Shown here piece by piece: positions 14,748 to 21,541 of a stretch of 64,000 nt of DNA. The notes beneath the pieces were generated by a model, which worked only from the letters and a program-made list of their open reading frames with translations, was not told the origin of the DNA and made no database searches. The position numbers and the translations under genes are program-made. The DNA is taken from the NCBI RefSeq assembly GCF_963921235.1, contig NC_086107.1, forward strand, positions 101,806,001 to 101,870,000, in the 5' to 3' direction. This DNA comes from Mobula hypostoma (taxonomy: Eukaryota). Position 1 is the first letter of the stretch, and each line of letters opens with the position of its first letter.

Positions 14748-17270
14748 GAGAGTTGTCTATAGGCCACCAAATAATAACATTACAGTGGCACAGGCAATAA
14801 ACGGAGAAATATCTGAGGCATGTAAAAATGGAACAGTAGTTATTGTGGAGGACTTTAACTTGCACATAGATTGGGTGAGTCAAGTTGGTTGAGGCACTCT
14901 TGAGGAGGACTTCATAAAATGCATACATAATAACTTTCTTCAACAGCATGTTACTGAACCTACAAGGGAATGTGCTATCTTGGATCTGGTCCTGTGCAAT
15001 GAGACAGGTAAAATTAGCAATCTTGTAGCTGGGGATCCTCTTGGAAACAGTAATCACAGTATGATTGAGTGTCTCATATAAATGGAGGGTGCAATAGTTT
15101 GATCTAAAAACAAGGGAGACTACAATGGGATGAGGAAGGATTTGGATAAGGTAGACTGGGAACACGGGCTGTCTGGTAGGATGGTTGAGAGACAGTGGAG
15201 GACTTTCAAAGAGATTTTTCACAGTGCTCAACAAAAGTATATTCCAGTTAAAAGCAAGAACAGTATGAATGGGGAGAGCAGGCCATGGATAACTAAGGAA
15301 ATGAAAGCATCAAATTAAAATCTCATGCGTCACCAAGAATAGTGGGAAACTGGAAGATTGGGAAAGCTTTAAAAGGCAACAAAGAACCACTAAACAAGCA
15401 ATAAAGCAAGGGAAGATAGATTATGAAAATAAATCAGTGCAAAATATAAAAACGGATAGTAAAAGTTTTTATAATTATATAAAGCGGAAAAGGGTGCCAA
15501 AGTGAGCGTAGGTCCCTTGGAGGACAAGGGGGAGTTGATATTGGGTAATGAGGAAATGGCTGAGGCTTTGAATATCTATTTTGTGTTGGTCGTCACGATG
15601 GAGAACACATCTGACATGCCATAGAGAGATGATATGGATGCAGTTGGAGGTGAGGATCTCGATACAGTAGCTATCACTAAAGAGGCAGTGCTGAGCAAAC
15701 TTGTGGGCCTAAAGGTAGATAAGTACCCTCGTCCTGATGGAATATATCCCAGGGTACTAAAAGAAATAGCAGAGGTTATAGTTGAGGCTTTGGTGATAAT
15801 TTACCAAAATTCTCTGAACTCTGGGCAGGTCTCGGCAGATTGGAAGAAGGTGAATGTCACGCCACTATTCAAAAAAGGATGTAGGCAAAAGGCAGGTAAC
15901 TATAGGCCAGTTAATTTAACATCTGTAGTTGCTTGGGGCTATCATCAAAGAAGAGATAGTGAGGCATCTGGAAAGAAATGGATCCATCATACAGACACAG
16001 CATGGATTTAGCAAAGGCAGATCCTGTCTGACAAACTTACTGGAGTTGTTTGAGGATATAACAAGCGCAGTGGATAGAGGGGAACAGACATTATATACTT
16101 ATATTTCCAGAGGCGTTTGATAAGGTGCCACATAGAAGACTTATCCATAAGATAAGCATATATAGAGTTGGGGTTGGTGTATTGGCATAGATAGAGGATT
16201 GATTAAACAATAGAAAGCAGAGAGTTGGGATACATGGGTGTTTCTCTGGTTGGTAATTAGTGGTGAGCAGTATGCCACAGGGGTCGATGCTGGGCCCACA
16301 ACTGTGCACGATATAAGTTTATGATCTGGAAGAGGGTACTGAGTGTAGTGTATGTAAGTTTGTTGGTAACACTAAATTGAGTGGAAAAGCAAATTGTGCA
16401 GAGGATACAGAGAGTCTGCAGAGAGATATAGATAGGTTAAATGAGTAGGCAAGGGGCTGGCAGATGGAGTACAATGTTGGTAAAGTGAGATCATGCACTT
16501 TGGAAGGAAAAATGGAAAAGCAGTTTATTATTTAAATGGTAAAATATTGCAGTATGCTGCTGTACATAGACTTGAGAGGGCTTGTGCATGAATTGAAAAA
16601 GGTGCAGCAGGCTATCAAGAAGGCAAATAGAATGTTGGCCTTCATTGTTAGAGGGACTGAATTTAAGACCAGGGAGGGTATGCTGCAACTGTATAGGGTA
16701 ATGGTGAGGCTGCATCTGGAATACTATGTGCAGTTCTGGTCTCCTTATTTGAGGGGGATATATTGGTTTTGGGGGCAATGCAGAGGAGGTTCACCAGGTT
16801 GATTCCAGAGATGAGGGGGATAGATTATGAGGAGAGATTGAGTCACCAGGGCCAGTACTCGCTGGAGTTCAGAAGAATGAGAGGAGATCTTATAGAAACA
16901 TATAAAATTATGAAAGGGATAGATAAGATAGAGGTAGGAAAGTTGTTTCTGCAGGTAGGTAAGACTAGAACTAGGGTACATCACCTCAAGATTCAGGGGA
17001 GTAGATTTAGGATGGAGATGAGGAGGAACTGCTTTTCCGAGAGAGTGGTGAATCTGTGGAATTCTCTGCCCAATGAAACAGTGGAGGCTACCTCAGTAAA
17101 TATATTTAAGACAAGGTTGGATAGATTTTTGCATAGTACGGGAATTAAGGGTTATGGGAGAAAGGCAGGTAGGTGGAGATGAGTCCATGGTCACATCAGC
17201 CATGATCTATTGAAAGGCGGAGTAGGCTTAATGGGCCAGATGGCCTACTCCTGTTCCTATTTCTTATGTT
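14748..17270 (+). mobile_element. CR1 LINE ORF2, 5'-truncated, with intact 3' end
   Basis: VVYRPPN, GNYRPVNLTSVV, QHGFSKGRSCLTNLLE, LEYYVQFWSP, RMRGDLIETYKIM; tail CCTATTTCTTATGTT at about 17270. Confidence 0.92.
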
Positions 17271-18160
17271 ACCTACTACTGATAACCAGCTCACTGGCTT
17301 ATAATTTCCAGGCCTATTCTTCAAATCTTTCTTTAAAAATGTAACAACATTGGCTATCCGGCACCTCATCCATGGCTAAGGACATTTTCGATATTTGTAC
17401 TAGGGTCCCTGCAGTTTCTGCACCAGCCTCCCACCATGTCTGAGGGAACACTTTGTCAGGCCCTGGGGATTTATGCATCCTAATTTGTCTCAGGATAGCA
17501 AGCATCTTCTCCTCTGTAATCCAGTTATGGTCCACGCCCTCACTGCTGTTTTGCTTCCATTCTGTAGACTCTTGTGTCCATCTCCCGAGTAAATACAGAT
17601 CCATAGATGACCACATTGATCTTCAAGAGGACAAATTTGGTCCCTTACTATCCTTTTGCTCAACATATCTGTAGAAGCCCTTGGGGTTCTCCTTCACCTT
17701 GTCTGCCAGAGCAACCTTCTTTTAGCCCTTCTGTCTTCTCTCTTAAGTATTCTCTTGTATCCCTTATACTCGTCAAATACCACATTTCTTCTTTGCTGTC
17801 TATACTTGCTATGCACCTCCTTCTTCTTAACAAGACTTCAATAGTTCTCAAAAACCATTGTTCCCTGATCCTGTTCTGACAGAAACATATAAACTCGGTA
17901 CTCTCAAAATTTCACTTTGCCAGAAAACAATCTATACCAGTCTATACTTGCCAGATCCTTTCTGATGCCACCAAAATTGGCCTTTCTCCAATTTAGAATC
18001 TCAACCCAGTAACCAGACCTAGTCTTCTCCATAATTATCTTGAACTAAGGAATGTGATCATTAGATCCAATGTGTTCCTCTACTCATCTGCCATACCTTG
18101 TTCCCTAATAGGAGATCCTGTATTGCACTATCTTTATTTAGGACCTCTATGTATTGATGA

Positions 18161-21100
18161 TTTTACTTCTTGTGTCACACATATCCAATATCTTGTTAGT
18201 GACCCATGGTTTAGACTTGCGGCGGCTTTTCCCCAGAATCTTGCTTGCTGTTTCCTTCATCACTGTGTTAAAGTTATTTGTGGTGGTCTCCAGGTCTTCA
18301 TCAAGGAGGAGTATTGGTGCAAACTCCTCCCCCCCCCCCAATTACTGCCTGAAATTCTTCAAAGATGGCGGGGTCTTTCAGTTTTTCAAGGTAGAATCTC
18401 AGCCAGCTGTTTTTCGGCTTGTTGATTTTTCTCAAGCGCACTCTGATGTTCATCATGACAAGGTCATGGTCACTGCCCACGTCTGCTCCTGGGAATGTTC
18501 TGGTCTTCAGTCTGTTCACACCAGATTTGTGCCATCTTTGCACCAGGATGTAGTCAATCTCATGATGTTGACCATTGGGGGCATGCCAGGCCCATCTTCG
18601 GGATGCTTTGTGCTCTCCAAGAGTGTTTGACAGCACTATGTTGTTATAACTGGCAAATTCCAGCAGGCGTAGTCCCCTCTCATTGGAGGTGTCATTGCAT
18701 GAGGTGCCGATCAGATCTCCCCAATCATCTTGTGCGTCTCTGCCCACCTTGGCATTCCAGTCACCCTGAATGATCAAAATATCTTTTTTGTCCACCTTGT
18801 CGATGGCGTCTTGTAGTTTCTTATAGAATTCTTCAATGTGTTCATTGTTGTAGTCTGTTGTTGGGGCGTAGACTTGTGCCACTGTGATGTTGAATGGCTT
18901 TACTCATAGGCGGATGGTATTGAGCCTGCTTGACACTGGTTGACATTCTAGGACAGCGTTCTTGATGGATTTGTTGACTAGGAACCCTACGTCATTTTCA
19001 TGTCTGTTCTTTTCTCCACTGTAATAGAGTACATGTCCTTCCTCAGTATGCACTTCTCCAGCGTTCTTCCATCTGGCCTCACAGAGCCCGAGGAAGTGCC
19101 AGTTGTATCTTTCCATCTCATGCGTGAGTTCCTTAAGTTTCCCTGCTTAGTTCAGCGTTCTTACATTCCATGTGGCAATTGTGATGTTCTCTCTGCCATG
19201 GATCTTCTGTGTCGAATCACCACTAGCACATTTATCACGTCCACCCTGGTGTGAGACAGATAGCGTTGTCATTGGTAACCCGGGCTGTGACTGATCCTGT
19301 ATGAAGTTGCTTTTTGGTGTGCTCATCATGCTGCGTGTCTTGGGCATCTGAAATCTGAAGCCCATTCCTCTCCAGGTTAAACCACAGCCGATTTCCTCCA
19401 ACTAGGTGGCTTGCCTTGGTCATGAACATGTGGCCGTTATACTTCATCTATGGAAGTCATTCACCCAGTGGTGCCATGTTAACACCACCCCCTCACGTGG
19501 TTTAGCCTGCCAGCTGAAGCGGTTTACCAGGGTATGGCACTTGCAGCCAACACCTGAGAGATTTAGGAGATGGATGAGTACCGGTGATGCCCGTCCACCC
19601 TGTCTGGTAAGGAGCAGCATGCCAGACATCAAAGGTATTACCTCTATCCAGAGCCCCCTATACCCCAGCAGAGGGAAGAACAGAATCCAGGAAAACCAAC
19701 AAGGATATCAGGAGGGAAATGAAGGAAACAAAGCAAAGATGGATAGCGGAACAATGTGCAGACATTGAAGACAGCCTCTCCAACAACACAAAGAAGACAT
19801 TCCAACTGTTGAAAGATCTTACCAAAGAAAAATAAGCCAAAGTAAACACCATCCAAGACAAAAATGACAAAAGTCTCACAGAAGAAAAGGAAATAATGGA
19901 AAGATGGACAGAGTACCGTTCAGAACTGTGCAACTACCAGAGCAAAGGGGATCCAAGCGTACTGAATGTACAGGAATCTTCCAGTGAGGATGACTATCTA
20001 ATCATGTGTGAAGAAGTTGAAGCCGCAATACGATCACTGAAGTGCAGGAAGTCAGCAGGAGTTGACAACATCCCTGCTGAACTGCTGAAGCATGGAGGAC
20101 AGGCCACGATAGACATGCTTACCACCATCTGCAATAAGATCTGGCAGACAGATGAATGGCTGACACCTTGGACTCAGAGTCGCTGATCATTGTGCTTCCC
20201 AAGAATGGCAATCTCCAACTTTGCCAGAATTACCTTACCATCAGTTTGATCAGCCATGTAAGCAAGGTAATGCTCAGAATCATCTTGAACAGACTGAGAT
20301 CTCAGGCAGAAGACATCATTGCTGAGGAACAAGCAGGCTTCTATAAGGGCAGAAGCACCACTGAGCAGATTTTCAACCTCCGCGCCCTCTGTGAGAAACA
20401 CCTTCAGCACCAGAGAGAGTTCTACCATGTCTTCATAGACTTCAAGAAGGCGTTTGACAGAGTCTGGCATGATGCCTTATGGGCCACCATGAAGAAATTC
20501 AACATGGGGCAGAAGCTGATTCATACAATCCATTGGCTTTATGCCAAGGCAACCAGTGCAGTACTCACTCAGAGCACAATTGGGGAGTGGTTCCATACCT
20601 CTGTAGGAGTTCATCAGGGCTGCCTCCTCTCCCCCACTCTCTTCAATGTCTTCCTGGAACGAATCATGAGTGTTACCCTTGAAGATCATGTGGGCACAGT
20701 CAGCATCGGAGGGAGGAACATCACAAACCTAAGATTTTGCTGACGACATTGATGGACTTGCAGGAAAAGACAAACTGGCCAACTTGGTCAGCCATCTTGA
20801 CAGAGCTTCCACAAAGTCTGGAATGGAAATAAGTGCCGAGAAAACCAAGCTCATGGCAAATGCCAATGGTGCCATCACAACAGACATTTCAGTCCATGGT
20901 CAGAAACTTGAGAAAGTGCAGCAGTTCAAATACCTGGGGGCAATCATCAGTGATGAAGGATCAAGACCAGGATTCCTGGCAAGAATCGCACAGACAATGA
21001 CTGCACTATCCAAACTCAAGACAATATGGAGGGACAGCAACATCACCATGAAGTACAAGATCAGACTCCTGCGTGCATTGGTATTCTCCATCTTCCTGTA

Positions 21101-21541
21101 CGCATGCGAGACATGGCCCATCATAGCAGAGCTACAGAGGAAGAGACAGGCATGGGAAATGAGATGCTATTGCATCATCTTGGGCATCTCATACTTGGAC
21201 CACATCACAAACGAGCAGGTCCGCAAGACCATCCAACACCACATTGGCCCTCATGAAGACCTTCTCACAACAGTGAAGAAAAGAAAACTGAGATGGTACG
21301 GCCATGTAACAAGATCCAGTGGCCTTGCAAAGACCGTTCTACAAGGAACTGTGGAGGGGAAAAGAAGGAGAGGTAGACAGAGGAAAAGATAGACGGACAA
21401 CATTAAAAAATGGACAGGGAAAACATTTGTGGTGACCCATGCTCTGGCACACAACCGCGACAGATGGAACAGACTGGTGAAAATCTTGTCATGACGCCGC
21501 CCCGACGACTCCACCAGGAGTTAAGGGTGCAAGGCAAGGCT
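18161..21541 (+). mobile_element. RTE-clade LINE, essentially full length, with inverted 5' half
   Basis: Minus strand 18161-19666: 5' UTR and APE (ATWNVRTL, QVYAPT, GDWNAKVG, GSDH). Plus strand 19667-21541: linker, RT (FIDFKKAFDRV, QGCLLSPTLFN, F-ADD), LRWYGHVTR, GKRRRGRQRKR, (CAAGG)n tail. TSD TATTGATGA 18152-18160 and TATTAATGA 21542-21550. Confidence 0.93.
19490..19666 (-). ncRNA. HDV-like self-cleaving ribozyme at the 5' end of the RTE element (degenerate copy)
   Basis: P1 GGGGUAU/AUACCCU with a G1-U wobble; P2 CUCUCAGGUGUU/ACCACGUGAGGG; P3 GGC/GCC; GG after P1; short P4; J4/2 GCUAA. All elements are in HDV order. Confidence 0.75.

What the first reader, a model, noticed from the sequence alone, without database searches (positions are those of the whole stretch)
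19490..19666. HDV-like self-cleaving ribozyme forming the 5' end of the RTE element
Seen on the minus strand, in order: P1 5' GGGGUAU (19666-19660); a 99-nt J1/2 insert; P2 5' CUCUCAGGUGUU (19560-19549); P3 GGC; L3 UGCAAGU; P3' GCC; P1' AUACCCU (19535-19529), giving the canonical G1-U wobble; GG (19528-19527); P4 CCGC/GCAG; J4/2 GCUAA with the candidate catalytic C at 19505; P2' ACCACGUGAGGG (19501-19490). Established: this nested double-pseudoknot order defines HDV/CPEB3-type ribozymes, which are known at the 5' ends of RTE and R2 retrotransposons. Inference: the family releases its own mRNA 5' end from host transcripts. This copy has probable decay (L3 UGC rather than UCC, two P2 mismatches, one P4 mismatch) and may be inactive. 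I cannot tell whether this family's ribozyme has been described.
Basis: partly seen in the sequence, partly recalled or inferred. Interest (0 to 1): 0.85.

Follow-up and report, generated by a model that had tools for sequence, protein, structure and literature searches.

The report
Decayed HDV-like ribozyme heading an RTE
The flagged stretch is a mutated, probably dead copy of a hepatitis-delta-type self-cutting RNA that marks the exact first base of an RTE jumping gene and its short parasitic derivatives, a known kind of arrangement seen here in a family that seems undescribed.

Summary
Genomic copies start at the predicted cleavage base G1 (window 19666): 23 of 30 begin GGGGTAT after unrelated DNA. 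A strict HDV descriptor hits 6 of 30 copies, always at their first base, and 0 places in 5.1 Mb of shuffled window. A sister family (3,727 exact hits of a 17-base core word) and metagenome RTE contigs keep L3 UCC, GG and J4/2 GCUAA, while P1, P2, P4 and the J1/2 rod change by compensatory pairs.

The window copy differs from its consensus at 9 of 177 bases and has broken P1.1, P2 and P4, so it is probably inactive. It lies at the inversion junction of one RTE insertion of twin-priming type.

Limits: no Rfam model detects it, the consensus has G1-C rather than G1-U, and no cleavage or RNA data exist.

HDV-like ribozymes on RTEs are already known, so this is a new member of a known kind.

The parts
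19660..19666 (-). P1 5' strand GGGGUAU. G1 at 19666 is the predicted cleavage product end and the first base of the element.
   Evidence: 35 of 39 other scored copies start at query 33-36, i.e. window 19668-19665. 23 of 30 copies start exactly GGGGTAT after unrelated flanks.
19561..19659 (-). J1/2 insert: a closed, rod-like peripheral domain (P1.2-type).
   Evidence: The fold pairs its two ends: -38 kcal/mol, z -2.68 in the window copy, and z -0.44, +0.09 and -1.47 in three other copies. The sister family's 96-nt J1/2 folds at -45.8 kcal/mol. Its stems covary.
19549..19560 (-). P2 5' strand. C113>G in this copy breaks one pair.
19546..19548 (-). P3 5' strand GGC.
   Evidence: Invariant GGC/GCC in families A and B and in L108.
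19539..19545 (-). L3, UGCAAGU here and UCCAAGC in the consensus. C123>G removes one of the two P1.1 pairs.
19536..19538 (-). P3 3' strand GCC.
19529..19535 (-). P1 3' strand, AUACCCU here and AUACCCC in the consensus.
19527..19528 (-). GG that pairs with the L3 CC (P1.1).
   Evidence: GG present in 28 of 30 copies.
19507..19522 (-). P4 hairpin, CCGC/GCAG here and CCGC/GCGG in the consensus (G159>A).
19502..19506 (-). J4/2 GCUAA with the candidate catalytic C at 19505.
   Evidence: GCUAA in 30 of 30 family A copies. Also present in family B, L108, L111 and L116.
19490..19501 (-). P2 3' strand ACCACGUGAGGG.
18162..19666 (-). Inverted 5' segment of the RTE insertion (element positions 1 to about 1533), carrying the endonuclease ORF broken by in-frame stops.
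   Evidence: BLAST to full-length copies. Pfam Exo_endo_phos_2 on 18301-18903. ORF pieces abut at 19147/19146 and 18904/18903.
19669..21537 (+). Direct 3' segment of the same RTE insertion (element position about 1556 to the 3' end plus an AAG-type tail).
   Evidence: RVT_1 on 20156-20743 and 20733-21392. The 3' end motif shared with the short elements lies at about 21501-21530.

Best explanation
The stretch is one decayed genomic copy of an HDV-like (nested double-pseudoknot) self-cleaving ribozyme. The ribozyme occupies the first 177 nt of an RTE-clade LINE and of its short, internally deleted, non-autonomous derivatives.

Inferred mechanism, by analogy with R2, RTE and L1Tc ribozymes: the element is transcribed as part of a longer host or read-through transcript. 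The ribozyme folds co-transcriptionally, helped by a rod-like J1/2 domain and a long P2 that pinch P1 against P2. The J4/2 cytosine and a Mg2+ ion then cut immediately 5' of G1. This leaves an RNA whose first base is G1. That RNA is the template for target-primed reverse transcription, so full-length copies begin exactly at G1. The uncapped 5' fold may also help translation.

Shown here: the fold topology, restoration of the core in the consensus, covariation of the helices, conserved core nucleotides, and genomic 5' ends at G1. Inferred: cleavage itself. The window copy carries 9 changes, three of which break P1.1, P2 and P4. It is embedded in a dead RTE with a 5' inversion, so it is most likely inactive.
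For: (1) Anatomy matches to the base.
(2) 5' ends: 35 of 39 other scored copies start within 2 nt of G1. 23 of 30 start exactly GGGGTAT with unrelated upstream DNA. Contigs of other sequencing runs align up to L003 position 1725 (= G1) and then run on unlike it (table 8, records 16 and 30).
(3) The consensus of 30 copies gives L3 UCCAAGC, a P2 of 10 contiguous pairs plus one, P4 CCGC/GCGG, GG and J4/2 GCUAA.
(4) Specificity: the strict descriptor hits 6 of 30 copies, each at base 1. It hits nowhere else in 96.8 kb of loci, and 0 times in 40 dinucleotide shuffles of the window, 5.1 Mb in all.
(5) Covariation between lineage consensuses:
- P1 pair 6-133 is A-U in family A and G-C in family B.
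- P2 pair 114-170 is G-C (A), C-G (B) and A-U (L108, L136).
- The second P4 pair is C-G or G-C.
- In L108, P1 pairs 3-136 and 5-134 are A-U and C-G, against G-C and U-A in A.
- No consensus difference between A and B breaks a core pair.
(6) Within family B (53 copies) 90.7% of cells pair, against 36-51% with slid partners. 59 cells changed on both sides against 28.0 +/- 4.0 in shuffles, reached by 0 of 500 shuffles.
(7) More distant RTE contigs L111 and L116 have different P2, P3 and P4 sequences but the same order, with L3 UCCUCGU or UCCGAGU, GG and GCUAA. L111 gives sub-threshold Rfam matches to HDV-F-prausnitzii (22.1 bits, E 0.034 in a 241-nt search) and drz-agam-1 (14.3 bits) at exactly that place.
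(9) In the window the inverted cDNA segment ends at G1, as expected if the template RNA began there.
Against: - No Rfam HDV-type model reports the window or 12 consensus-like copies, even at E up to 5-10.
- The consensus cleavage-site pair is G1-C, not the G-U wobble of HDV and CPEB3. U occurs in 11 of 30 copies at a CpG site.
- Only 5 of 30 copies keep every feature.
- No RNA data could be had, and no cleavage assay exists.
- The L108 P1 is complementary at only 5 of 7 positions; its first two bases do not pair, so it is either truncated or divergent.
- L136 lacks a P1 5' strand.
- 78 of 80 metagenome RTE loci gave no hit to the core model. Most of them lack the 5' region. Of 13 loci with an N-terminal match, only 4 showed a core, and I read only 3 of the others' kind by eye.
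- A defined 5' end could also come from a transcription start.
Confidence: 0.85

Rival explanations
1. The conserved 5' fold is a structured leader (internal promoter, IRES or a binding site for the element's protein) that has HDV-like topology but does not cut. The 5' end at G1 would then be a transcription start.
For: Cleavage is not shown. LINE 5' ends can be set by internal promoters: in L1Tc the first 77 nt are both a promoter and a ribozyme (PMC3383444, search listing only). Rfam models miss the element. The large J1/2 rod covaries and could bind a protein.
Against: The invariant unpaired bases are exactly those that form the HDV active site (L3 UCC..G, GG, and the J4/2 C followed by NAA), across lineages whose helices differ. 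The long-range P1 pairing, 130 nt apart, covaries and starts at base 1. A promoter does not need a double pseudoknot.
Confidence: 0.08
2. The resemblance is chance: an ordinary GC-rich 5' UTR happens to fit a permissive descriptor.
For: The window copy alone fits only a loose descriptor, which is non-specific: 5.35 hits per shuffled window.
Against: The strict descriptor gives 0 hits in 5.1 Mb of shuffles, yet hits 6 of 30 copies at base 1. The consensus repairs all three defects. Compensatory changes occur in four helices across lineages.
Confidence: 0.02
3. This very copy (19490-19666) is still an active ribozyme that processes transcripts of this locus.
For: P1, P3, GG and J4/2 are intact, and G1-U is the canonical wobble. 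Fast HDV-type ribozymes can tolerate a non-Watson-Crick P1.1 pair (PMC13635239, passages).
Against: Three core defects occur together: L3 C123>G, a P2 G-G mismatch in mid-helix, and a P4 C-A mismatch. The host element is dead, with in-frame stops and a 5' inversion, so nothing maintains this copy.
Confidence: 0.1

Closest known systems
HDV-like ribozymes at the 5' ends of RTE elements (drz-Agam-2 family of Anopheles gambiae; Ruminski et al. 2011, Webb et al. 2009)
   Same: Both lie at the very 5' end of an RTE-clade LINE with cleavage at the first base. Both have a large structured J1/2 (P1.2) domain and a 12-position P2. Both have the inferred role of releasing the element RNA from a co-transcript. 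Sources: PMC4908430 part 1; PMC3774820 and PMC6765202 passages.
   Different: The Rfam library, which holds drz-agam-2-2 (its presence there is recalled, not checked), reports nothing here, so there is no detectable sequence relationship. The host genome and RTE lineage differ. The consensus has G1-C. I could not read the primary papers, which are not held, so I cannot exclude that this RTE lineage was listed there or in their supplements.
R2 ribozyme and R2 SIDEs (short internally deleted elements)
   Same: An autonomous element and its deletion derivatives share a 5' ribozyme and the 3' end needed for reverse transcription (PMC3414825, abstract). Here 20 of 30 sampled copies are elements of about 455-470 nt, made of the RTE's first 394 nt plus about 50 nt of its 3' end and an (AAG)n tail.
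   Different: R2 is specific to the rDNA site and is co-transcribed by Pol I. These elements are dispersed, and the short forms far outnumber the autonomous ones.
L1Tc / NARTc of Trypanosoma cruzi
   Same: An HDV-like ribozyme sits at the mRNA 5' end and is shared by an autonomous LINE and its non-autonomous partner (PMC3185411 and PMC3383444, listings only; PMC6765202 passages).
   Different: The L1Tc ribozyme is compact (77 nt) and doubles as a promoter. It belongs to a different LINE clade.
Rfam HDV-type families RF02682 (HDV-F-prausnitzii) and RF01787 (drz-agam-1)
   Same: The core of the related RTE contig L111 aligns end to end with both models. Its P3-L3-P3' letters agree with the drz-agam-1 consensus.
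   Different: The scores are below the gathering thresholds (22.1 against 44, and 14.3 against 37). The window's own family gives no match at all.

Membership tests
HDV-like self-cleaving ribozymes | Nested double-pseudoknot order P1-J1/2-P2-P3-L3-P3'-P1'-(GG)-P4-J4/2-P2' | tested here: met
   Window copy. Consensus of A and B, and L108. L111 and L116 from P2 onward.
HDV-like self-cleaving ribozymes | P1 of 6-7 bp beginning at the cleavage site, supported by covariation | tested here: met
   GGGGUAU/AUACCCC in A and GGGGUGU/ACACCCC in B. In L108 AGCAU/AUGCU pairs at positions 3-7, while positions 1-2 are unpaired.
HDV-like self-cleaving ribozymes | P1.1: two L3 pyrimidines pair with the two bases after P1' | tested here: met
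   UCC plus GG in the consensus: 26 of 30 and 28 of 30 copies. NOT met in the window copy, where L3 reads UGC.
HDV-like self-cleaving ribozymes | Catalytic cytosine in J4/2 | tested here: met
   GCUAA in 30 of 30 family A copies and in every lineage seen. This shows presence only; its role in catalysis is not testable here.
HDV-like self-cleaving ribozymes | G-U wobble at the cleavage site | tested here: inconclusive
   The consensus is G1-C (C 18, T 11, G 1 of 30). The wobble is not universal: the fast C. briggsae ribozyme has C at +1 (PMC13635239, passages).
HDV-like self-cleaving ribozymes | Match to a curated covariance model (Rfam) | tested here: not met
   0 hits at gathering score. No HDV-type hit at E up to 10 or 5. 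Only the distant relative L111 gives sub-threshold hits. The 99-nt J1/2 insert is a likely reason.
HDV-like self-cleaving ribozymes | Mg2+-dependent self-scission leaving a 5'-OH at +1 | not testable with these tools
   No RNA holder was listed and only contigs were available.
RTE clade of non-LTR retrotransposons | Single ORF with an N-terminal AP-type endonuclease and an RT, element about 3.2-3.5 kb, and a short 3' UTR ending in a microsatellite rather than poly(A) | tested here: met
   Exo_endo_phos_2 and RVT_1. Relatives of about 1,010-1,060 aa with EEP plus RVT on contigs of 3.2-3.9 kb. Element positions 1-1533 plus 1556 to the end give about 3.4 kb. The tail is AAG-type. No clade tree was built.
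Short internally deleted non-autonomous elements (SIDE-like) | The 5' ribozyme joined to the 3' end of the autonomous element, with the coding region missing | tested here: met
   20 of 30 copies share 1-394 with the RTE, then about 50 nt identical in kind to the RTE 3' end at window 21480-21530, followed by (AAG)n.

The most novel reading that the evidence does not exclude
The sister family is made of elements of about 570 nt, with 3,727 exact hits of its 17-base core word. Its version of the ribozyme carries a conserved 6-bp hairpin (96-97% of cells paired) inserted at the 3' end of L3, right beside the active site. It still keeps UCC, GG, GCUAA and covarying P1, P2, P4 and P1.2, and its copies begin at G1. 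If this form cleaves, it is a structural subclass of HDV-like ribozymes that fixed-L3 descriptors and Rfam models cannot see. In that case ribozyme-headed RTE derivatives may be far more common in large animal genomes than surveys suggest. The RTE lineage that carries this ribozyme also has RT proteins 72-81% identical to proteins labelled crab, tubeworm, sea spider and brittle star, which fits horizontal spread of a ribozyme-bearing element.
Probability: 0.4. Interest if true: 0.6.

Novelty: new member of a known kind. Interest (0 to 1): 0.45.

Why it matters
The finding shows how this RTE family and thousands of short derivatives in a 3.5-Gb genome obtain a precise RNA 5' end without a promoter of their own. 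It adds a well-supported case, with natural covariation in P1, P2, P4 and the peripheral J1/2 rod, to the RTE class of HDV-like ribozymes. It also shows that the curated models miss that class. For annotation, the conserved core (UCC..G, GG, GCUAA) gives a marker for full-length 5' ends. The L3-hairpin variant and the G1-C cleavage-site pair are natural test cases for how much the HDV active site tolerates.

Tried and rejected
- Rfam at gathering score on the whole window found nothing. Permissive scans of 19300-19900 and of 12 consensus-like loci gave no HDV-type hit.
- The loose descriptor is non-specific.
- A covariance-model search of the window's own genome is not accepted by the tool.
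- RNA evidence: no RNA holder was listed and all runs are contigs, so expression and RNA ends could not be examined. The flank I chose for read laying (L003 1727-1850) turned out to be a hugely abundant repeat, which spoils depth comparisons.
- The alignment fitted to model R2 (A3) shifts family B by 2 columns in P1 and P2, so I did not use it for covariation counts.
- MAFFT misplaces the L3 hairpin between families A and B and misplaces the L108 5' end. Comparisons between A and B and with L108 were therefore made by anchored reading, and A6 was not counted.
- RNAalifold on A5 recovers P2 and the apical J1/2 stem but not the pseudoknotted fold: 21 pairs, covariation term -0.69.
- The strict descriptor on 80 metagenome loci gave 0 hits.
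- Core model R1 with filters off on 13 loci gave only weak hits.
- The 186 nt upstream in L121 show no core.
- Earlier notes of this scan hold nothing on this genome or sequence.
- Literature: searches found no description of this family or of an L3 hairpin insertion. I saw listings and the passages cited only. The three primary papers on RTE ribozymes are not held.
Full report
OBSERVATION
- P1 GGGGUAU 19666-19660
- a 99-nt J1/2
- P2 19560-19549
- P3/L3/P3' 19548-19536
- P1' AUACCCU 19535-19529
- GG 19528-19527
- P4 19522-19507
- J4/2 GCUAA 19506-19502
- P2' 19501-19490

The listed defects are real. Taken alone, the copy is weak evidence. It fails a strict HDV descriptor. A loose descriptor finds about as many sites in shuffled windows, 5.35 per 64 kb, as in the real one. 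Rfam reports nothing, either at gathering score or in a permissive scan of the region.

FAMILY AND 5' END
The window lies in a 3.48-Gb eukaryotic assembly. A DNA search of that genome with window 19440-19700 gave 402 candidates, of which 40 were scored. Of the 39 matches other than the window itself, 35 begin at query position 33-36, where 35 is window 19666. In the 30 loci fetched, 23 begin exactly GGGGTAT. Four more are full length with one substitution. One (L030) has T in place of G1. Two lack the first 3-4 bases. The DNA upstream differs in every case. Contigs of other public runs align up to L003 position 1725 (= G1) and then continue unlike it (table 8). The family's first base is therefore the predicted cleavage product end.

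CONSENSUS
The majority consensus of the 30 copies reads L3 UCCAAGC, P2 CUCUCACGUGUU/ACCACGUGAGGG (10 contiguous pairs, one U-C, one more pair) and P4 CCGC/GCGG, with GG and GCUAA kept. The window copy differs from the consensus at 9 of 177 positions: 29, 57, 84, 88, 113, 123, 128, 138 and 159. Positions 113 (P2), 123 (L3/P1.1) and 159 (P4) break the core.

The consensus P1' ends in C, giving G1-C. U is present in 11 of 30 copies at a CpG site. That is more often than at other CpG sites of the region by my reading, so a G1-U source variant is possible but not shown.

Copies carry a mean of 6.3 differences, and only 5 of 30 keep every feature. This is expected for neutral decay after insertion.

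SPECIFICITY
A strict descriptor required all of the following:
- a 7-bp P1
- a 3-bp Watson-Crick P3
- an L3 of 6-9 nt with CC at positions 2-3
- GG directly after P1'
- a P4 of at least 4 bp
- CNAA in J4/2
- a P2 of at least 7 positions with at most one mismatch

It hits 6 of 30 copies, each time with G1 at the element's first base. It hits nowhere else in 96,791 bp of loci, and 0 times in 40 dinucleotide shuffles of the window on both strands, 5.1 Mb in all.

COVARIATION
Copies of one young family cannot show covariation, so I looked for relatives.

Family B. Laying contigs of four runs on L003 showed frequent variant letters at ribozyme positions 170, 155, 143, 133 and 130. A 17-base word carrying the position-170 variant occurs 3,727 times in the genome, against 1 for the reversed control. 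The window's own form occurs 78 times. I fetched 70 copies in positional order. They define family B, elements of about 570 nt ending in (AAC)n. Compared at consensus level with family A:
- P1 is GGGGUGU/ACACCCC, so pair 6-133 is G-C where A has A-U.
- P2 pair 114-170 is C-G where A has G-C.
- The second P4 pair is G-C where A has C-G, and two further single changes lengthen P4.
- P3 GGC/GCC, L3 UCC..G, GG and GCUAA are unchanged.
- No consensus difference breaks a core pair.

The J1/2 domain is a closed rod in both families (-38 kcal/mol in the window copy; -45.8 kcal/mol for the B consensus). By my reading of the alignment there are several A-U/G-C exchanges between the families.

Within family B (53 copies, alignment A5), 90.7% of 3,446 cells form standard pairs, against 36-51% when partners are slid. 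59 cells changed on both sides, against 28.0 +/- 4.0 in shuffles, a value reached by 0 of 500 shuffles. The double changes are concentrated in the J1/2 stems and P4. P2' was fixed by the search word, so P2 cannot vary within B.

Other organisms. The RT piece of the window's RTE has relatives of about 1,010-1,060 aa with EEP and RVT domains. A profile of 15 of them found 80 metagenome loci. The core model R1, built from family A, hits two of them just upstream of the ORF: L108 (77.1 bits, E 1e-16) and L136 (57.7 bits).
- In L108, P2 pair 114-170 is A-U and P4 is CCGCCU/AGGCGG. The bases at the position homologous to P1 read AGCAU against AUGCU in P1'. This makes pairs 3-136 and 5-134 compensatory relative to family A. 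The first two bases do not pair, so the copy is truncated or divergent.
- L136 is decayed and lacks a P1 5' strand.
- Two more distant contigs, L111 and L116, show the same order from P2 onward with unrelated helix sequences, L3 UCCUCGU or UCCGAGU, GG and GCUAA. In L116 the contig starts inside the ribozyme.
- L111 gives sub-threshold Rfam matches to HDV-F-prausnitzii (22.1 bits) and drz-agam-1 (14.3 bits) at exactly this place.

Against this: 78 of 80 loci gave no R1 hit, although most lack the 5' region. L121 shows nothing in its 186 upstream bases. I did not read the other loci that have an N-terminal match.

WHAT THE WINDOW LOCUS IS
Window 18162-19666 is element positions about 1533 down to 1 on the minus strand. 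Window 19669 onward is positions about 1556 to the 3' end on the plus strand, ending near 21537 with the 3' motif and an AAG-type tail. One insertion with its 5' part inverted, about 22 nt lost at the breakpoint, and the inverted segment ending at RNA base 1 has the layout expected from twin priming. I recall that model from work on L1; it comes from no call here.

The endonuclease ORF has in-frame stops. The copy is therefore a relic. Its ribozyme is not under selection and, with three core defects, is probably inactive.

ELEMENT TYPES
Of the 30 family A copies:
- 7, including the window, continue into RTE coding sequence.
- 20 are a short form of about 455-470 nt: the first 394 nt of the RTE, about 50 nt of its 3' end, and (AAG)n.
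- 3 are cut earlier.

This matches the logic of R2 SIDEs (PMC3414825, abstract) and of L1Tc/NARTc.

COMPARISON WITH WHAT IS KNOWN
HDV-like ribozymes at the 5' ends of RTE, R2, Baggins and L1Tc are established. This is stated in passages of PMC6765202 and PMC3774820; the primary papers are not held. The mosquito RTE-type ribozyme drz-Agam-2-1 has the same two unusual traits, a structured J1/2 (P1.2) and a 12-bp P2, which together accelerate cleavage (PMC4908430). A G-U at the cleavage site is not universal: the fast C. briggsae ribozyme has C at +1 (PMC13635239).

I therefore file this as a new member of a known kind. The L3 hairpin of family B is the most unusual item. I found no description of it (listing only), and its activity is untested.

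CONFIDENCE
- 0.85 that the family's 5' end encodes a functional HDV-like ribozyme.
- About 0.1 that this particular copy is still active.
- Cleavage, the 5'-OH end and any role in translation are inferences.

Noticed in passing
window 18162-21537: The two head-to-head RTE pieces are one insertion: element positions 1-1533 inverted, then 1556 to the 3' end in direct orientation, with about 22 nt missing and 1-3 nt of microhomology at the junction. This is the layout expected from twin priming. The flanks GTATTGATGAT (left) and TTATTAATGAA (right) may be a decayed target-site duplication (8 of 11 bases match).
   Followed up: partly
L031-L060, L067-L106 (own genome, contig C1): Family B: elements of about 570 nt with an (AAC)n tail and 3,727 exact hits of a 17-base core word. 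They carry a homologous ribozyme with a conserved 6-bp hairpin inserted at the 3' end of L3, and a duplicated GGGGUGU at the 5' end. Their autonomous partner was not identified.
   Followed up: partly
L003-L030 (20 of 30 family A loci): Short non-autonomous derivatives of about 455-470 nt, made of the RTE's first 394 nt plus about 50 nt of its 3' end and (AAG)n. In the sample they outnumber autonomous copies.
   Followed up: partly
window 20156-20743 (+) and proteins P0001-P0120: The RT fragment is 72-81% identical to proteins labelled as crab, tubeworm, sea spider and brittle star. This is high for such distant hosts and fits horizontal transfer of this RTE lineage. No tree was made.
   Followed up: no
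window 19468-19488 (-): Directly 3' of P2' lies a 6-bp hairpin (GUGGUG/CACCAC, 9-nt loop). It is also present after the cores of L108 and L136. Its function is unknown.
   Followed up: no
L003 1727-1850: The flank upstream of this copy's G1 is a repeat about 100 times more abundant in contig depth than the RTE 5' region. In other copies it continues into a GATA-type microsatellite, so this RTE copy abuts the tail end of another retroelement.
   Followed up: no
window 15625-17182 (+) and 17314-17622 (-): Fragments of other, unrelated LINE reverse-transcriptase ORFs lie next to the RTE insertion. The window is a mosaic of retroelements.
   Followed up: no
L009 496-555 (-): A tRNA-like match just below Rfam's threshold (28.8 against 29 bits), possibly a tRNA-derived SINE head.
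   Followed up: no
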